A stretch of 14,431 bases of DNA from a virus, in UHGV virus genome UHGV-1968440. The stretch is one strand, 5' to 3'. The translations under genes and the position numbers were made by a program. Positions 5,032 through 14,428 of the stretch are shown piece after piece. How positions within the stretch are numbered: position 1 is the stretch's first letter; the number at the start of each line of letters is the position of its first letter. Under the pieces are notes generated by a model. The model ran no database searches. It was not told the DNA's origin and saw only the letters and a program-made list of their open reading frames with translations.

Positions 5032-5153
5032 GAAACCAGAACATGCACACACAAAAAAACCGCTTGCCATGCCGCAATCAGTCAGGTTACATTTCCGCTG
5101 CACCTCATAAAACGGGTGCCGGGATTTCCACCCCGCTGACAACCAAAGCGCAC

Positions 5154-5174
5154 AACCGCGCCAGCGGTTTTTTT
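5154..5174 (+). terminator. Candidate intrinsic terminator inside the early region
   Basis: Stem aaccgc/gcggtt with 4-nt loop followed by a run of seven T (5168..5174), ~120 bp after the stop at 5031. Confidence 0.45.
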
Positions 5175-5353
5175 GTGCGTACCGTATCGCCACGTCTTTT
5201 TCGCACACGAATTATGGTGGGGCGTACAGGGCCGACTTCGGTCGGGCCGGGTTCTTTGGTTGCCGGTTGTGGAAACCCTGTACGTCTCACCACCCCGAGT
5301 TTTCCACCTCTGGATGGTGAGTTTTCAAAACTTACAACCAAAGAGGCCACCCC

Positions 5354-8959: not shown

Positions 8960-9919
8960 ATGAAAATTTACATCGACGACGGCTCCACCAACATCAAGCT
9001 GGCATGGACTGAGAACGGCGAACGCCGCAACGCCATCAGCCCGAACAGCTTCAAGTCGGAATGGTCTGCGCCGTTCGGTGGCTCGCAGCCTGCTAACTAC
9101 ATGCTTGATGGCGTGCGCTATGGTTTTGATCCGGTCAGCGATCGCTTTGTCCAGACGACCGACACGCAATACCAGTACAGCGATGTGAATGTCATTGCCA
9201 TTCATCACGCGCTGGTCAAATCAGACATCACGCCACAGGAAGTGGATGTGGTTGTTACCCTGCCACTGAGCGAATATTTCGACACAAACGCACAGCCGGA
9301 CATGGCCAACATCAACCGCAAAAAAGCGAACGTCATGCGCCCGGTGGAGTACCAGAACGGCGAAGCATTCACTATCCGTAACGTACGGGTTATGCCTGAA
9401 TCCATTCCGGCTGGCTTTAAAGCACTGGCTGACATGAGTCCGTTTGAATCCCTGCTGATTGTGGATTTGGGCGGAACCACGCTGGATGTGGCAAAGGTTC
9501 AGGGGCAACTGGCAGGTATCAGCCAGGTGTTTTGCGATCCACACGTAGGCGTTTCTCTTATGGCCGATGCCGTACTGTCGGTGATGGCCACTAACGGTAT
9601 GCGCACCAGTCACCACATCGCCAATACCATTATCGAACATCGCCATAATGAAGCCTGGCTGCGCCAGCACATCCACAATGACGCGCATTACGCCAGCCTG
9701 ATGGCGGTTATTCGTGAAAAGGAAGAAACACTGAAACAACGCGTGATCCGCGCGCTGGCGGTTTTTTCGGGTTACGGGCGGGTGATGGTTGTCGGTGGCG
9801 GGGCGGAGATTGTGGCACCCGCTATCCGCGAAGCCTGCGGAGTTAATGCGACTTTCATCGCGGACGGGGTGCCACAGTTTGCTCTGGTTAATGGGCTGTA
9901 CGCAATGGACAAGGAGTAA
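8960..9919 (+). CDS. parM: ParM/StbA-like actin-type segregation ATPase
   Basis: 319-aa ORF. N-terminal MKIYIDDGSTNIKLAW, then SPNSFK, YSDVNV, HHAL, MPESIPAGF, DLGGTTLDV, GVSL, VVGGGAE and LVNGLYAM match, in order, the motifs I recall from plasmid R1 ParM (actin/ASKHA fold). SD-like AGGA 8 nt upstream of the ATG. Confidence 0.85.
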   Translation: MKIYIDDGSTNIKLAWTENGERRNAISPNSFKSEWSAPFGGSQPANYMLDGVRYGFDPVSDRFVQTTDTQYQYSDVNVIAIHHALVKSDITPQEVDVVVTLPLSEYFDTNAQPDMANINRKKANVMRPVEYQNGEAFTIRNVRVMPESIPAGFKALADMSPFESLLIVDLGGTTLDVAKVQGQLAGISQVFCDPHVGVSLMADAVLSVMATNGMRTSHHIANTIIEHRHNEAWLRQHIHNDAHYASLMAVIREKEETLKQRVIRALAVFSGYGRVMVVGGGAEIVAPAIREACGVNATFIADGVPQFALVNGLYAMDKE

Positions 9920-9923
9920 ACCA

Positions 9924-10235
9924 ATGACGACACCAACCAGACGGATAAGTTTCTATCTGAAGCCCGCCGCCGTCAAGAACGAAGGAGAAGCATGCGCCTG
10001 GCTGGACAGCCTTACACCAGAAGCCCGCAAAAGCGGCCAACGCGTGGCTTTTCTGGCCGGGCTGGCACTTCTGAAGACGAATCCGGCAGAGGCTTACCGA
10101 CTGGCCGCATGGGCTGATGATGAGATGTTACCTGTGACACAAATCAGCTCAAAAAAGTTTGAAGCACAGTCTGCACCAGTGGCTAAGATAACCAGCCAGA
10201 TGGCTGGGAATATCCGGGCGTTATTTCCTGAGTAA
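9924..10235 (+). CDS. parR: ParR/StbB-like centromere-binding adaptor
   Basis: Track ORF 9789..10235 is an upstream-extended version; ATG at 9924 has SD AAGGAG (9911..9916) and follows the parM stop by 4 nt. Translation MTTPTRRISFYLKPAAVKNEGEACAWLDSLTPEARKSGQRVAFLAGLALL parallels the N-terminal region of R1 ParR as recalled (RTIAFKLNP...LDSIPQGERSRLNRAALTAGLAL). Confidence 0.75.
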   Translation: MTTPTRRISFYLKPAAVKNEGEACAWLDSLTPEARKSGQRVAFLAGLALLKTNPAEAYRLAAWADDEMLPVTQISSKKFEAQSAPVAKITSQMAGNIRALFPE

Positions 10236-10355
10236 AAGCATCTGCGCGAAAAATGCTCACGTTTATAGAGACAGTATCATTCCATTTGGCACACTTACTT
10301 CAATAATCGATCTGTTAAACAAATAGATTGTCTATTATCTATCGATTAAAACGAT

Positions 10356-10420
10356 CAATTATCTTGACAGTAATGTGCCTTTTTGTAAGATCGTTCGCAT
10401 TGTGAGCGACAAGATAATTG
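10356..10420 (+). promoter_or_regulatory. Sigma70-like promoter bracketed by 11-bp inverted repeats (operator-controlled promoter)
   Basis: TTGACA at 10364..10369, 16-bp spacer, TAAGAT at 10386..10391. Flanked by CAATTATCTTG (10356..10366) and its inverse CAAGATAATTG (10410..10420). A 15-bp palindrome AATAGATTGTCTATT (10322..10336) lies just upstream. Confidence 0.5.
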
Positions 10421-10441
10421 CGCGGCATTGTCCATGCAAAA

Positions 10442-10469
10442 CGCCCCAATAGCAGCAACTATTGGGGCG
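10442..10469. other. Perfect 11-bp stem hairpin in the leader of the 89-aa gene
   Basis: cgccccaatag / ctattggggcg with 6-nt loop. On the minus strand it is followed by TTTTG, so it could act as a leftward terminator or as an RNA/DNA structural element. Confidence 0.45.
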
Positions 10470-10599
10470 TAAAACTCGGTCGGGCTCACTTAACCTGATA
10501 TGCGTGCCTTCCGAAGTAAATCAAAATGTGCGTCGTATATTTTATTGCTTACACGCACCTCTGTAAAGGCACGCATATTTTTCCTATGAGGTAAATAAA

Positions 10600-10869
10600 G
10601 TGCGGGCTAAAACAGGTATTTGCAAGAACCCTCATCGTTATAATCCAACATTTCTGTCTCTCCCTGAATATCAAGGACAAGAAGGTCGGCACAAATGCGC
10701 TGCCTGTGCTTTTGAGCTAGGCATAAAAGATGCGCTTGAAGGACGCGCTATGGCTCAGAATGATTTAGTTTTAGCTAACATTCCGTTTAGCCAGGCTGGA
10801 ACTGTAAGGCACAGAGATGCCTATGAAGCATATGTTCGTGGTTGGCGATTAATAAACAGCAACAATTGA
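10600..10869 (+). CDS. Hypothetical small Cys/His-containing protein (accessory island cargo)
   Basis: 89-aa ORF with GTG start; SD GAGGT at 10588..10592. Residues C8, H12, C34, C37 (CKNPH ... HKCAACAF) could form a small metal-binding site. Followed by a clear intrinsic terminator. Confidence 0.5.
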   Translation: MRAKTGICKNPHRYNPTFLSLPEYQGQEGRHKCAACAFELGIKDALEGRAMAQNDLVLANIPFSQAGTVRHRDAYEAYVRGWRLINSNN

Positions 10870-10877
10870 TACTTTTG

Positions 10878-10901
10878 AAGCGCCGATAAGGCGCTTTTTT
10901 T
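10878..10901 (+). terminator. Rho-independent terminator after the 89-aa gene
   Basis: Stem aagcgcc/ggcgctt with loop gataa, followed by TTTTT (10897..10901); starts 9 nt after the stop codon. Confidence 0.7.
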
Positions 10902-11294
10902 GTTTGCACGATAGTGCACAAGTTTGCACAATTTTTTTGAACGACTTTTTGTACTTCCGGCCCGCGTGGTGGCTGGATCCGTCAAGGATCCGTACGTGCA
11001 CAAAAAAACGCGTTTTTTCTGCGCGCAGGTGACGGGGGAACAGCCCGCGTTTCAGGGGGTAAATAGCATTCCCTGAACGATGTCGCAGAGACACAACAGA
11101 ATGGCCATATTTCTCACGCTGAGCATGAAAAAGGCGTGAGGGCTTTTGATTTGATGGGGTGAAAGGTAAGGCCGTCAAAATCGCACTGAGGCAGCGAGAA
11201 CATACAGTCAACGCGGTGGAATTGCGTAAGAGTCTGACCGTCGATGGTGGCGATAAACTGGAAGGCGTCGTGAAATTATCTGATTGATACAGGA

Positions 11295-11339
11295 GCTGCT
11301 TCGCCGGGGCATAAATTTTTTATGCCCCGGCGAAGCAGC
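11295..11339. repeat. Perfect 21-bp inverted repeat (45-bp palindrome)
   Basis: gctgcttcgccggggcataaa / tttatgccccggcgaagcagc around a 3-nt centre; GC-rich arms with an AT-rich centre; no flanking T-tract on either strand; ~90 bp upstream of the 174-aa gene. Confidence 0.7.
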
Positions 11340-11430
11340 AGACAAGCGAAGCGCGTCAGCGATACGGCACCTTGCCGACCATACTTCATAAGTGCAAAAT
11401 ACGAGCAAAGAAATCAATGGAGGCTGTCTT

Positions 11431-11955
11431 ATGGTCATTAATTACAAGCAGTTAAGAGAAAAACGGGAGCAGGTAAAGGAGAGCTTTCGCCGCAATGAAG
11501 ATCTGACCCCGCTTGTACGCCTTGCCCAGGGCATTGTTGATGCTTATGAAATCTCGCTGGAGCTGCCATCACAGACCTGGACAGATAGCGACGGTAATCG
11601 CCAGCATTACGTTTCATGCGGACTGGAAGCAGCCGAAGGATTTCGCAGAATGCCTTTATCCCAGATCCCTGCCGCTACCCCCAAAGCACGGGGCAGCAAT
11701 GATGAGCGAAAACTGACTTTTAGTATTGAAACGGTGGTTGACGACACACCTGGCGAAGTCGCGTTCGTGCACACGCCTGTTTCGATCGCAATGTATAACG
11801 ATGAAATACAGGTTCGCGTTAATAATAATATCGTGCCACTTAAAGAAGGTAATTCACCCTACACCACCGTTTGTGAAGCCATTCAATATTACGTTCTCTC
11901 TGAAATTGATAATCTCAAGCCTGACGGCACCCAGAAAATGGTTCAACTCTGGTAA
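11431..11955 (+). CDS. Hypothetical protein (orphan cargo gene adjacent to the portal gene)
   Basis: Track ORF 11392..11955; ATG at 11431 with SD GGAGG (11419..11423) at 7 nt; ~174 aa; no motif I can recognise; convergent with the portal gene. Confidence 0.6.
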   Translation: MVINYKQLREKREQVKESFRRNEDLTPLVRLAQGIVDAYEISLELPSQTWTDSDGNRQHYVSCGLEAAEGFRRMPLSQIPAATPKARGSNDERKLTFSIETVVDDTPGEVAFVHTPVSIAMYNDEIQVRVNNNIVPLKEGNSPYTTVCEAIQYYVLSEIDNLKPDGTQKMVQLW

Positions 11956-11961
11956 AAAGGA

Positions 11962-11986
11962 CAGCCCCATCACGGGGCTGTTTTTT
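11962..11986. terminator. Bidirectional intrinsic terminator between convergent genes
   Basis: Stem cagcccc/ggggctg (11962..11980) followed by TTTTTT on the plus strand and by CCTTTTTAC on the minus strand; overlaps the last codons of the portal gene. Confidence 0.7.
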
Positions 11987-13016
11987 CATCAAGAAGAGCA
12001 TAAGAGTTAAAACGGATCACCTCTTCGCCAAGCCAGTCATTGATGTGCTTCATAGCCTCCATGACGGGCATCAGCTCGTTAATTGCGTAAACCCGCGCTG
12101 CCTTCTCCACATCGCCAAACGCACTTTTTTCGCCCGGCATCGCCCCCATCAGTTGCGGCGGAACGCGGTGCGCAGCCAGCACATCATCACGGGATGCCGC
12201 CTTAACATTCATGAATTCATCTTTTGCGGTGATCTGCTGGAACGGCAAAATTTGCACCCCCTCTTTGCCCCCGTTGGGCGCATGAATGAGCACGTTTTTA
12301 AACGCACCACCACCACGTGCCCCCTGTAGCGTTTCTTTCAGGGAGTCCATGCTTTCGCGGTTTACCTGCGCTGCACCGATGTAGATGATGCACCCGGCGT
12401 GGGATCCGTTGTCGTAGTACAGTTTTCTGAACATGTCCGCCGAATGAGAAAGGCTGGCCGAGAGTAATGCGCCAAGATATTCCGGCATGCCGTAGATTTC
12501 CTGGTTAATATCCGGATTCATCAGGTGGCACACTTTGCCAGGACGAAACTGAAACGCGTCCTTGCCATCCTGCACATACCACCATGATTCAAGATCGCTT
12601 CCGCGTCGCATGTATTTCGCCAGGGCGTGCCGTAATTTAAGCGGTTCGCCGAGCATATTGCTTCGAAGCTCAAGGAATGCGTTACCGAACACAAACCAGT
12701 CCAGCGCCAGCGCCGAGAAATCCTGCCGGGAAAGCAGCGGGTGCGGGATGTAGCAACCGAGTAATACATTGCGCTTAAAGTAAAGCGCAGACTGATGCCA
12801 GGACGTTTGCCGGGCTGCTCTTGCCAGACCGTACCAGTCCACCGGGGTTTCATACCACCGCCCGTTATCAGCACAGTACATATTGTCCAGCAGGTCATGC
12901 CCGGTCAGGCGATAAGGACCATCAAATGTGAATGCACTGAGCGATGATTCTTTCCTGAGCGCATCAGCGAGATCAATGCGTGAACTCATGCGCACTTTTT
13001 TATTTTTTCTGCTCAT
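11970..13016 (-). CDS. Q: Portal protein, P2 gpQ-like
   Basis: 348-aa ORF beginning MSRKNKKVRMSS; segments GRWYETP, LESWWYVQ, HLMNPDINQEIYGMPEYL, YYDNGSHAG, SRDDVLAAHRVPPQLMG, GDVEKAARVY and NDWLGEEVIRFN resemble P2 gpQ as I recall it. Start overlaps the stop of the upstream terminase gene (ATGA at 13014..13018). Confidence 0.8.
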   Translation of the reverse strand: MSRKNKKVRMSSRIDLADALRKESSLSAFTFDGPYRLTGHDLLDNMYCADNGRWYETPVDWYGLARAARQTSWHQSALYFKRNVLLGCYIPHPLLSRQDFSALALDWFVFGNAFLELRSNMLGEPLKLRHALAKYMRRGSDLESWWYVQDGKDAFQFRPGKVCHLMNPDINQEIYGMPEYLGALLSASLSHSADMFRKLYYDNGSHAGCIIYIGAAQVNRESMDSLKETLQGARGGGAFKNVLIHAPNGGKEGVQILPFQQITAKDEFMNVKAASRDDVLAAHRVPPQLMGAMPGEKSAFGDVEKAARVYAINELMPVMEAMKHINDWLGEEVIRFNSYALLDEKTAP

Positions 13017-14428
13017 CAGAACTCCATAACCGTGAAACGCTCGTTTTCTCCTTCGCCGCCAATTGGTTCGTTAATGACAGCAAGCATGGTTGCCCACGCA
13101 AGGTCGCCGTGGCTGATCCCCCTCGCGCGGTCCGTTTCGTAAGTGATAAAGCCGCCCGGTGTTTTCACCTTACGCACGGCGTTAAAGGCTGCGACCAGCT
13201 CGCGTTCGGCGCGATCGTATTCCCACCGCCCGGCACGCATTATTTGCAGCATTTTCAGTACCAGCGACCGTTTTGATGACAGCGTGAAGGTGTACGGAAT
13301 AGCAGCAGGGAAAAACCGTTTCACTATCTGATAAACAGCCTCCCCGTTCCCGCCTGTCACATCAATGCCGATGTGTTCCACGTTGTAGCGACACGTGAAC
13401 TCTTCAATGACTCTGGCCTGTTCTTCAAACTCCAGCCCCTGAACGCGTCGCGTCTCCACCGTTCGAAAACGGCCGCCAGGAACAGCCGGAGGAACCACCA
13501 CGGACACAGCGCCGCTGTCGCCGTTTCCACTGCTGCCGTTTGCGTCATACCCAATCCATACCGGACGATTCCCCATCGGGCGGGGAGCAAAAGGTTTCCA
13601 GTCTTTCCAGTCGTCGTATCCGTCAACACCACAGCCAATCAGGATATTCAGGTTAAATGCCGATTCCCCTTCGCGGACAAACTCACACATATAGAGATTG
13701 AGGAACTCGTCTTCGGTGTTTTCATCACGAATTTCATCAATATCGGTGTGTTTCCAGCCGTGATTAACCACATCTTCCAGCGTGACAATTTGCCGCCACG
13801 TCCGGTCAGGGCAGATAAGCCCGTTATGCAGCGTTTTCCAGTCCACAGAAAAACGCTGGCGTTTATGCGAGGCCTTTTTCTCGTTCCAGCGGTCGCCGTT
13901 CCAGTAGGCGTATGCCTCGTGCGTTTCGGTGGATGGCGTGGAGAAGTAGGTGCGCCGCAGTCCGCTGAGGGTTGCCATAGCGCCAGCCACCTTGCGCAGT
14001 TCAGCAAAGCGACTGACCCAGAAAAATTCATCAAAATAAAAATTGCCCGTGTAGGACTGTGCCGTCGCAGCAGAAGTACCAAGAAAATGCAGCTCTGCGC
14101 CGTTGGAGAGGATGATTTTATCGCCCCCTTTCAGCTCCACATCAACTTCAGATGCAGCCTCCTGAATAATGCTTTTAAACTGGAACGCCTGACGACGCGA
14201 CGCAGACAAAAAAATCTGGTTACGCTGGTAAGGTTGCGCCACATCGTCACGCAGCGCCATCAGCAGTGCTTCCTGAGCAAAATACCAGGTCGCCCCAATC
14301 TGTCGGGATTTCAGGACCATCCTGTTACGTATCCCGGCTTCCCTGCAAAGGGTCCTGTCTCTTATACACAAATCCCCACCCGGGGATTTGTGATGTCTGT
14401 CAGTCTGCTTTAGGGGGACTCTTTCCAT
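13016..14428 (-). CDS. P: Terminase large (ATPase) subunit, P2 gpP-like; 5' boundary uncertain
   Basis: 470-aa track ORF in-frame to within 3 nt of the window edge. Walker-A-like KSRQIGAT near the N-terminal end of the recognisable region and a Walker-B-like hydrophobic-DE segment (NFYFDEFFWV). The first ~36 track residues translate a hairpin / IS-end-like sequence and look non-protein-like, so the true start is either the Met at about 14318..14320 or lies beyond the window. Confidence 0.75.
   Translation of the reverse strand: MERVPLKQTDRHHKSPGGDLCIRDRTLCREAGIRNRMVLKSRQIGATWYFAQEALLMALRDDVAQPYQRNQIFLSASRRQAFQFKSIIQEAASEVDVELKGGDKIILSNGAELHFLGTSAATAQSYTGNFYFDEFFWVSRFAELRKVAGAMATLSGLRRTYFSTPSTETHEAYAYWNGDRWNEKKASHKRQRFSVDWKTLHNGLICPDRTWRQIVTLEDVVNHGWKHTDIDEIRDENTEDEFLNLYMCEFVREGESAFNLNILIGCGVDGYDDWKDWKPFAPRPMGNRPVWIGYDANGSSGNGDSGAVSVVVPPAVPGGRFRTVETRRVQGLEFEEQARVIEEFTCRYNVEHIGIDVTGGNGEAVYQIVKRFFPAAIPYTFTLSSKRSLVLKMLQIMRAGRWEYDRAERELVAAFNAVRKVKTPGGFITYETDRARGISHGDLAWATMLAVINEPIGGEGENERFTVMEF

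What the first reader, a model, noticed from the sequence alone, without database searches (positions are those of the whole stretch)
10902..11430. ~530-bp non-coding, repeat-rich spacer with a 21-bp perfect palindrome
This stretch has no convincing ORF but is dense in structure: several TGCAC/GTGCACA motifs (10905..10930 and 10995..11002), a tandem direct repeat GGATCCGT (10975..10982 and 10986..10993), and a 45-bp perfect palindrome at 11295..11339 with no terminator T-tract. In P2-type prophages the joined cos site normally lies between the right-end cargo and the portal gene, but I could not find the P2/186 cos consensus (GGCGAGGCGGGGAAAGCAC-like) here. A weakly similar G-rich segment exists around 11030..11050 (GTGACGGGGGAACAGCC). 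The region may hold a divergent cos/packaging site, a small RNA gene, or a recombination/insertion scar.
Basis: seen in the sequence. Interest (0 to 1): 0.55.

Follow-up and report, generated by a model that had tools for sequence, protein, structure and literature searches.

The report
Divergent cos packaging site of P88-type prophage
The left third of this spacer is very probably the prophage's DNA-packaging (cos) site, a diverged relative of the phage P2/186/P4 site, and the large palindrome is a separate hairpin left at the old end of the portal operon, so the feature is real but of an expected kind.

Summary
The window is a P88-type (Xuanwuvirus) P2-like prophage.

Only 10904-11061 is conserved in distant Enterobacterales relatives. 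A profile built from those relatives finds the experimentally mapped cos sites of P4, 186 and P2 as the top hit in each genome (E = 7e-9, 5e-7, 0.011). The layout also matches. There are three TGCAC boxes 10 bp apart and a fourth box 72 nt further on, a spacing unchanged in 38 of 38 sequences including P2, 186 and P4. A G-rich core follows, which I predict to be the cohesive end at about 11026-11046, give or take 3 nt.

The stretch 11062-11294 evolves about neutrally. Its 42-codon ORF shows no coding signature, and no RNA family or covariation was found there.

The palindrome at 11295-11339 follows the portal stop codon directly in P88, where P2 has its terminator tQ. Its perfect 21-nt arms are rare; 117 of 119 relatives carry an imperfect version.

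An inserted gene module (11360 to about 11995) now separates the palindrome from the portal gene.

The cos cleavage has not been mapped experimentally. This is a new member of a known kind, of modest interest.

The parts
10877..10903 (+). Intrinsic terminator of the upstream cargo gene (10600-10869, phrog_3941). It marks the right edge of the variable cargo region.
   Evidence: Stem-loop GAAGCGCCGATAAGGCGCTTT followed by TTTTGTTT. Homology among relatives is lost left of 10904: diversity is 0.64, and the alignment shows the same.
10905..10929 (+). cos boxes 1-3: three TGCAC boxes with 10-bp phasing. Inferred to be terminase recognition sites.
   Evidence: Conserved in 38 relatives from many Enterobacterales genera. 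P2, 186 and P4 have TGCAT boxes 123-124, 111 and 101 nt upstream of their mapped cos cut.
10930..10996 (+). Fixed-length cos spacer with T-tracts (10932-10938, 10946-10950) and the lineage-specific GGATCCGT pair (10975-10993, carrying two GATC sites).
   Evidence: The stretch from box 3 to box 4 aligns without gaps over 79 columns in 38 of 38 sequences including P2, 186 and P4, although the sequence itself varies. The GGATCCGT pair is nearly invariant in close relatives. In distant relatives only the second GGATC is kept.
10997..11008 (+). cos box 4: TGCAC followed by an A-run.
   Evidence: Diversity 0.01 among 94 close relatives. It corresponds to TGCATTAAAA, 29 nt before the cut in P2, 186 and P4, and is aligned to it by the profile.
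11021..11061 (+). cosN region: GCGCGCA, then the predicted cohesive end (about 11026-11046, give or take 3 nt; GGTGACGGGGGAACAGCCC = 11028-11046), then a conserved right flank ending in GGGGG.
   Evidence: The profile aligns it to the mapped 19-nt ends of P4, 186 and P2. Eleven distant relatives read GGCGAGGCGGGG at this position. Diversity is 0.002, against 0.055 at portal third codon positions.
11062..11294 (.). Lineage-specific filler with no detected function. It contains a 42-codon ORF (11159-11287) that some records annotate.
   Evidence: No homology in distant relatives. Diversity is 0.071, at or above the neutral yardstick. The ORF has no codon-position periodicity and is broken in 22 of 104 unique sequences. 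No Rfam match and essentially no covariation. The stretch is replaced by unrelated DNA in 10 of 104 relatives.
11295..11339 (.). Palindrome with 21-nt arms and a 3-nt centre. It is the ancestral hairpin downstream of the portal gene, in the position of P2 tQ and 186 tW, here in a rare perfected form.
   Evidence: describe the structure. In P88 and P884B11 it lies 16 nt from the portal stop. Distant relatives have unrelated GC-rich hairpins at that position. 117 of 119 IMG/VR loci have the imperfect left arm GCTGGAGAG(T/C)C or a close variant, and 1 has the window's arm.
11340..11359 (.). Remnant of the ancestral hairpin-to-portal junction. TCA at 11356-11358 is the complement of the P88 portal stop codon.
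   Evidence: The alignment with P88 and P884B11 is identical up to 11359 and unrelated after it.
11360..11995 (+). Inserted gene module: ORF 11431-11955 (174 aa, unknown function), a bidirectional terminator at 11961-11981, and a replaced set of last codons for the portal gene.
   Evidence: Present in 19 of 115 IMG/VR relatives that have a portal gene in the locus, and in PhiR44_2 and similar phages; absent from P88. The ORF matches phrog_5091 and no Pfam family. The hairpin is followed by a T-run on both strands.
11970..13016 (-). Portal gene (homologue of P2 Q), part of the packaging machinery next to cos.
   Evidence: Pfam Phage_portal. 47% identical to P2 gpQ.
13016..14428 (-). Large terminase subunit (homologue of P2 P; runs off the window). 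It is the predicted cos-cutting enzyme.
   Evidence: Pfam Terminase_6N plus the Terminase_6C RNaseH-like nuclease domain. 47% identical to P2 gpP.

Best explanation
The interval is a composite of three things.

(1) 10904-11061 is the cos site of a P88-type (Xuanwuvirus) P2-like prophage. By analogy with P2, 186 and P4, terminase recognises the circular or concatemeric phage DNA here. The phased TGCAC boxes (three at 10-bp spacing, and a fourth held exactly 72 nt from the third) most likely act as recognition or positioning sites for the small terminase subunit. The nuclease domain of the large subunit then makes staggered nicks in the G-rich core at about 11026-11046, giving 5' cohesive ends whose sequence differs from the P2 19-mer.

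(2) 11062-11294 is unconstrained filler next to cos.

(3) The palindrome at 11295-11339 is the stem-loop that in P88 sits directly after the portal stop codon. It most likely ends or stabilises the late terminase-portal transcript on the - strand. In this window it has been made perfect by a multi-base change, probably a template-switch correction of a quasipalindrome. It has also been separated from the portal gene by an inserted gene module that carries its own bidirectional terminator.

Shown here: homology, layout, conservation and positions. Inferred: which protein binds which element, the exact nick positions, the role of the hairpin, and how the arms became perfect.
For: Context: replication endonuclease, ParM and a Plasmid_stab_B partition protein, cargo, this spacer, then portal and large terminase on the - strand. 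This is the position of cos in P2 and 186 and agrees with PMC9122126.

Conservation: only 10904-11061 is kept, at 70-76% identity, in about 35 portal-linked loci from other Enterobacterales genera.

Homology: an nhmmer profile built from those loci, with no P2, 186 or P4 sequence in it, finds the annotated cos as the best hit in the whole circularised genomes of P4 (E = 6.9e-9), 186 (E = 4.8e-7) and P2 (E = 0.011; the next hit has E of 0.28 or more).

Layout: the boxes lie 123, 113, 103 and 31 nt before GGTGAC. In P2, 186 and P4 they lie 123-124, 111, 101 and 29 nt before the mapped cut. The box 3 to box 4 segment aligns without gaps in 38 of 38 sequences.

Intermediates: eleven relatives read GGCGAGGCGGGG, the P2 consensus, at the position of the window's GGTGACGGGGG.

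Constraint: diversity among 94 close relatives is 0.002 in cosN and 0.01 in box 4, against 0.055 at portal third codon positions and 0.071 in the filler.

Protein divergence: large terminase and portal are both 47% identical to P2 gpP and gpQ, in keeping with a diverged site. The P88 paper also finds its terminase phylogenetically distinct (PMC5285337).

Palindrome: it lies next to the portal stop in P88. Hairpins occupy the same position in distant relatives, and tQ and tW are annotated there in P2 and 186. It is linked to a portal gene in 115 of 119 IMG/VR loci.
Against: No virion-end data exist for any P88-type phage in the collections searched. No phage record starts or ends at the predicted site, and IMG/VR contig ends near it are scattered.

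The strict P2 19-mer is absent.

The alignment to the P2 19-mer is ambiguous by 2-3 nt. Counting from box 4 puts the end at 11026-11044. The conserved CA|GG context puts it at 11028-11046. The interval between the flanking GCGCGCA and CGCG is about 3 nt shorter than in relatives with a P2-like core.

The hit to P2 itself is weak (E = 0.011).

Binding of the small terminase subunit to the boxes has not been shown, here or in any paper I could read.

The palindrome has no U-tract on either strand, so it is not a canonical intrinsic terminator.
Confidence: 0.85

Rival explanations
1. The palindrome is itself part of the packaging signal, for example a second terminase or host-factor binding site on the portal side of the cut, like cosB in lambda.
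For: It lies about 250 nt from the predicted cut, on the side that carries the packaging genes. Its inner 10-bp stem is found in every close relative examined.
Against: It is absent from distant relatives that keep the cos core; these have unrelated hairpins that follow the portal stop. Ten of 104 close relatives have unrelated DNA between the cos core and the palindrome. Nineteen of 115 have 0.6 kb inserted on its other side. P2 and 186 have annotated terminators at this position.
Confidence: 0.07
2. The stretch 11062-11339 encodes a small RNA or a 42-aa peptide, with the palindrome as its terminator.
For: The 42-codon ORF (11159-11287) is intact in 82 of 104 unique relatives and ends 7 nt before the hairpin. 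Some records annotate it.
Against: Variation shows no codon-position periodicity (0.179, 0.177, 0.167), and most differences change the amino acid. Diversity is at the neutral level. There is no Rfam match beyond chance-level microRNA hits to the hairpin. Only 1-4 isolated compensatory pairs were found among about 70 predicted pairs. No promoter-like site was found upstream, and no U-tract follows the stem.
Confidence: 0.06
3. The real cohesive end lies elsewhere in the spacer, for example at 10962-10980 (CGCGTGGTGGCTGGATCCG, 10 of 19 matches to the 186 end by my count), or where the P88_4B11 record begins (window 10950).
For: In P88_4B11 this segment contains GCGTGGCGG, nine consecutive matches to the 186 end. 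The linear record NC_049391 starts at the equivalent of window 10950, and P2-type records from the same study start exactly at cos.
Against: The authors state that nt 1 was chosen relative to reference genomes, not mapped (PMC6969025). The 10950-10990 segment is variable in relatives, while 11026-11046 is almost invariant. The profile alignment places the mapped P2, 186 and P4 ends on 11026-11046.
Confidence: 0.04
4. The TGCAC repeats are a partition centromere for the ParM and Plasmid_stab_B genes encoded 1-2 kb upstream, not a packaging element.
For: Iterated, helically phased short repeats near a ParM-type partition operon.
Against: Equivalent boxes at the same distances from cos occur in P2, 186 and P4, whose annotations list no partition genes. 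The boxes keep a fixed 72-nt distance to box 4 and the cos core.
Confidence: 0.02

Closest known systems
cos sites of phages P2 and 186 and of satellite P4 (19-nt 5' cohesive ends; Ziermann & Calendar 1990, as cited in PMC9122126 and PMC9594776)
   Same: Same position: cargo, then cos, then portal and terminase on the opposite strand. Significant profile homology. Four TGCA(C/T) boxes with nearly the same distances to the cut and an identical 72-nt spacing between boxes 3 and 4. A G-rich core (CGGGG) flanked by GCGC-rich sequence.
   Different: The boxes read TGCAC, not TGCAT. The core reads GGTGACGGGGGAACAGCCC, not GGCG(A/T)GGCGGGGAAAGCA(C/T): 13 of 19 matches, and no hit at up to 3 mismatches. 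The interval between the flanking GC-rich blocks is about 3 nt shorter. The distance from cos to the portal gene is about 300 nt in P88 and 920 nt here, against 170 nt in P2. The ends have not been mapped.
P2 tQ and 186 tW, the terminators of the late terminase-portal operon
   Same: A stable stem-loop directly downstream of the portal stop codon, between the portal gene and cos.
   Different: No U-tract. The stem is much longer (21 bp here; a 10-11 bp inner stem plus a 4-bp outer helix around an internal loop in most relatives). In this window it no longer adjoins the portal gene.
The cos-adjacent hotspot of accessory and defence genes in P2-like phages (Rousset et al. 2022, PMC9122126)
   Same: Variable cargo abuts cos. 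Homology among relatives breaks exactly at box 1 (10904), and again at the left edge of the palindrome and at 11360.
   Different: Here a variable gene (11431-11955) also lies on the portal side of cos. The function of that gene was not examined beyond family searches.

Membership tests
P2-family cos site | Lies between the right-end accessory genes and the portal gene, with portal and large terminase on the opposite strand | tested here: met
   compare P2 and 186. In IMG/VR, 147 of 149 loci with enough downstream DNA have a portal gene in the locus, 146 of them within 1 kb downstream of the core motif.
P2-family cos site | Sequence homology to experimentally mapped cos regions | tested here: met
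   The profile built from P88-type loci hits the annotated cos of P4, 186 and P2 as the best hit in each whole genome (E = 6.9e-9, 4.8e-7, 0.011).
P2-family cos site | Cohesive-end consensus GGCG(A/T)GGCGGGGAAAGCA(C/T) | tested here: not met
   No match at up to 3 mismatches. The homologous position matches at 13 of 19. Eleven related loci carry GGCGAGGCGGGG at that position, linking the two forms.
P2-family cos site | TGCA(T/C) boxes at fixed distances upstream of the cut (my description; I did not find it stated in a paper) | tested here: met
   123, 113, 103 and 31 nt here, against 123-124, 111, 101 and 29 nt. The box 3 to box 4 segment aligns over 79 ungapped columns in 38 of 38 sequences.
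P2-family cos site | Cut by terminase to give cohesive ends, and sufficient for packaging | not testable with these tools
   No record or contig end marks the site.
Intrinsic (Rho-independent) terminator (for the palindrome) | GC-rich stem-loop directly followed by a U-tract | tested here: not met
   The stem is present but no T-run follows on either strand. The only scan hit uses a weak alternative 6-bp stem.
Dispersed palindromic repeats (REP, attC or IS ends) | Many copies in unrelated genomic contexts | tested here: not met
   115 of 119 IMG/VR loci with the inner palindrome also carry the portal gene. E. coli genomes with the spacer have a median of 1 place, about one per prophage.
Known small RNA families (Rfam) | Match to a covariance model, or covariation supporting a fold | tested here: not met
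   No family at gathering score. Only chance-level microRNA models hit the hairpin (E = 0.4-0.7). 1-4 compensatory pairs among about 70 predicted pairs.
Protein-coding gene (42-codon ORF, 11159-11287) | Purifying selection visible as excess variation at third codon positions, and an intact frame in relatives | tested here: not met
   Diversity by codon position is 0.179, 0.177 and 0.167. The frame is broken in 22 of 104 unique sequences. No Pfam or PHROG family.

The most novel reading that the evidence does not exclude
The TGCAC/GGTGACGGGGG site defines a packaging specificity separate from P2, 186 and P4. P88-type phages would then neither package nor be exploited by classical P4-type satellites, and would have satellites of their own. 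One IMG/VR element (L195) carries this cos type without an adjacent portal or terminase gene, next to a DUF927 primase-helicase, an integrase and a P2-family capsid gene. It could be such a satellite.
Probability: 0.15. Interest if true: 0.5.

Novelty: new member of a known kind. Interest (0 to 1): 0.25.

Why it matters
The cos core is present in 1149 of 5426 complete E. coli genomes and carries no feature in nearly every record shown. The paper describing P88 never mentions cos.

Locating it fixes the virion genome ends for this widespread prophage group. It also marks the exact edge of the cos-adjacent cargo hotspot. It gives a testable minimal packaging signal, about 160 bp, for P88-type transducing particles.

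The comparison further shows that the P2 family keeps four TGCA(C/T) boxes at a fixed geometry while the cohesive-end sequence drifts. That is a concrete lead on how these terminases recognise DNA.

None of this would surprise a specialist. P2-like prophages are expected to have cos here.

Tried and rejected
- A search for the P2 19-mer at up to 3 mismatches found nothing.
- Rfam found nothing in the spacer, at gathering thresholds or at permissive ones.
- I looked for phage records whose ends fall at the predicted site, using three queries. None did; most records are in prophage order.
- The linear P88_4B11 record starts at window 10950, which I first took as a possible mapped end. The paper says nt 1 was chosen relative to reference genomes.
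- IMG/VR contig ends near cos scatter between 10904 and 11367 with no clustering.
- Papers on a P88-type cos: none found.
- A conserved dyad in the spacer (alignment A3, columns 34-51) gave 57.9% paired cells against 52% in shuffles and 55.6% when slid by one column. This is inconclusive and is not claimed.
- RNAalifold on 11055-11350, both strands, gave no structure supported by covariation apart from the palindrome. A first attempt had filtered out the main sequence group and is disregarded.
- The first diversity profile was inflated by 10 non-homologous outliers and was recomputed without them.
- Extra copies of the cos core in E. coli outside prophages, which could be satellites: places number 1324 for the core against 1307 for the whole spacer. 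The one partial hit I opened is another P2-like prophage.

Full report
**What is in the sequence.**
- TGCAC occurs at 10905, 10915, 10925 and 10997.
- GGATCCGT occurs at 10975 and 10986.
- An inverted repeat has perfect 21-nt arms at 11295-11315 and 11319-11339 around a 3-nt centre.
- The repeat folds at about -43 kcal/mol on either strand, roughly 9-10 standard deviations below shuffled sequence. No T-run follows it.
- The P2 cos 19-mer is absent even at three mismatches.
- ORFs in the interval are short.
- Motif counts alone are unremarkable: TGCACAA occurs 4 times against 3.9 expected in the window. The case rests on comparison with other genomes.

**Context.** The window is the right arm and packaging end of a P88-type (genus Xuanwuvirus, Peduoviridae) P2-like prophage.
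- The gene order is replication endonuclease, ParM and a Plasmid_stab_B partition protein, small cargo genes, this spacer, then portal (11970-13016) and large terminase (13016 onward) on the minus strand.
- The spacer is 90-99% identical to phages P88, PhiR44_2, P88_4B11 and others, and to about 1140 complete E. coli genomes.
- Portal and large terminase are each 47% identical to P2 gpQ and gpP.

**Which part is conserved.** I collected 52 loci encoding portal relatives from other species and compared them with the spacer.
- Only 10904-11061 finds partners outside the close E. coli and Salmonella group. Identity is 70-76%, and the match always lies a few hundred bases downstream of the portal stop.
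- The alignment shows three TGCAC boxes, a T-run, a variable stretch, a fourth TGCAC followed by an A-run, GCGCGCA, and a G-rich core.
- In eleven loci the core reads GGCGAGGCGGGG, the start of the P2 cohesive end. In the window and its group the same position reads GGTGACGGGGG.

**Homology to mapped cos sites.** I built a 171-column nhmmer profile from the P88-type loci alone. I searched it against the complete, circularised genomes of P2, 186 and P4, whose cos ends are annotated from experiment.
- The best hit in each genome is the cos site: P4 E = 6.9e-9, 186 E = 4.8e-7, P2 E = 0.011. The next hits have E of 0.28 or more.
- The alignments pair the G-rich core with the 19-nt cohesive ends and pair the upstream boxes with TGCAT boxes.
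- In P2, 186 and P4 those boxes start 123-124, 111, 101 and 29 nt before the cut. In the window they start 123, 113, 103 and 31 nt before GGTGAC.
- The stretch from box 3 to box 4 aligns over 79 columns without a single gap in 38 of 38 sequences, including P2, 186 and P4, although its sequence is only 72% conserved. A length kept this strictly points to a geometric constraint, such as two protein contacts held a fixed distance apart.

**Where the cut is.** Two registers are possible.
- Counting 29 nt from box 4, and aligning the conserved CGGGG, puts the P2-equivalent 19-mer at 11026-11044.
- Keeping the CA|GG context of 186 puts it at 11028-11046.
- The window's group has 2 extra bases before GG and about 2-3 fewer within or after the core, compared with relatives that have a P2-like core.

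I therefore give 11026-11046, give or take 3 nt. I cannot say whether the overhang is 19 nt.

**Constraint among close relatives.** I compared 94 close, homologous sequences from IMG/VR and phage records.

| Region | Pairwise diversity |
|---|---|
| cosN | 0.002 |
| Box 4 | 0.01 |
| Right flank (11047-11061) | 0.014 |
| Boxes 1-3 region | 0.059 |
| 11062-11294 | 0.071 |
| Portal gene, third codon positions (yardstick) | 0.055 |

In the boxes 1-3 region the TGCAC letters themselves are invariant. Left of 10904 homology is lost, with diversity of 0.64. The cargo region therefore abuts box 1 directly. This fits the published cos-adjacent hotspot of P2-like phages (PMC9122126).

**The middle.** The stretch 11062-11294 is at or above the neutral yardstick.
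- Its 42-codon ORF (11159-11287) has flat variation across codon positions (0.179, 0.177, 0.167) and is broken in 22 of 104 unique sequences.
- It matches no protein family.
- Rfam gives only chance-level microRNA hits to the hairpin.
- Consensus folding finds no helix supported by covariation except the palindrome.
- Ten of 104 relatives have unrelated DNA here.

I treat it as filler.

**The palindrome.**
- In P88 and P88_4B11 the hairpin ends 16 nt before the portal stop codon, and the alignment with the window is identical up to 11359.
- P2 and 186 have annotated terminators, tQ and tW, at that place.
- In most of 30 distant relatives examined, a GC-rich hairpin of unrelated sequence follows the portal stop within about 10-40 nt.
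- The palindrome is therefore the positional equivalent of the portal-operon terminator, although it lacks a U-tract and cannot be called a canonical intrinsic terminator.
- It is not a dispersed repeat: 115 of 119 IMG/VR loci carrying its inner 23 bases also carry the portal gene.
- Its perfection is unusual. 117 of 119 loci have left arm GCTGGAGAG(T/C)C or a close variant, which leaves a 4x4 internal loop. Only one has the window's GCTGCTTCGCC.
- Five substitutions within seven bases, all making the arm complementary to its partner, look like a template-switch correction of a quasipalindrome. That is an inference.

**The right edge.** From 11360 to about 11995 the window carries a module that P88 lacks.
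- It holds an ORF of 174 aa (11431-11955, phrog_5091, no Pfam family).
- It holds a hairpin at 11961-11981 with T-runs on both strands, serving both the ORF and the portal gene.
- It replaces the last few codons of the portal gene.
- Nineteen of 115 IMG/VR relatives have it.

**What is missing.** No experiment maps the ends of any P88-type phage in the material I could reach.
- No record begins or ends at the predicted site.
- The linear P88_4B11 record begins at window 10950, but its authors chose nt 1 relative to reference genomes (PMC6969025).
- Contig ends scatter.
- The P88 paper does not mention cos.
- That the small terminase subunit binds the boxes is an analogy with lambda cosB and gpNu1, not a result.
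- Published work says P2 and P4 share a 55-bp cos core, and that longer flanks raised cosmid transduction more than 1000-fold (PMC9594776). This is compatible with a role for the upstream boxes but does not prove one.

**Verdict.** The element is a new, unannotated member of the P2-family cos sites. It keeps the family's box geometry but has a changed cohesive-end sequence. The palindrome is a separate feature linked to the portal operon. Interest is modest.

Noticed in passing
L195 8700-8860 and flanks (IMGVR_UViG_3300011919_000061): A P88-type cos (TGCAC boxes plus GCGCGCAGGTGACGGGGGG) with no portal gene downstream. Upstream lie a DUF927 primase-helicase, an integrase and a metallo-beta-lactamase-fold protein. 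Downstream lies a P2-family major capsid gene. It may be a satellite-like element or a rearranged phage. L165 also has the motif with no portal gene within 7 kb downstream.
   Followed up: partly
window 5100-5297: Rfam matches above gathering score to isrK (5100-5174, 64 bits) and C4 antisense RNA (5210-5297, 82 bits), side by side on the + strand in the early region of the prophage.
   Followed up: no
window 10236-10600: About 365 bp with no ORF of 50 aa or more on either strand, where P88 and PhiR44_2 carry small CDSs. It contains perfect inverted repeats: 10441-10452 with 10459-10470, and 10498-10510 with 10566-10578. It is 98% identical in phages 520873 and 503458.
   Followed up: partly
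window 11295-11305, against 119 IMG/VR loci: The left arm of the palindrome differs from the common allele by five substitutions in seven bases, all restoring complementarity. This looks like a single template-switch event rather than stepwise mutation.
   Followed up: partly
window 11285-11295 and 10904: Homology among relatives breaks sharply at the left edge of the palindrome: 10 of 104 unique sequences carry unrelated DNA to its left. It breaks again at box 1 of cos. Both elements therefore act as mosaic boundaries.
   Followed up: partly
window 10975-10993: The GGATCCGT pair places two GATC (Dam) sites 11 bp apart inside cos. It is nearly invariant in the E. coli and Salmonella P88 lineage but absent from distant relatives, apart from one GGATC.
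   Followed up: no
window 8960-10235: A ParM-type actin-like ATPase and a Plasmid_stab_B protein, a plasmid-style partition pair, lie inside the prophage just after the replication gene. No repeat array was found in the 96 bp upstream of parM.
   Followed up: partly
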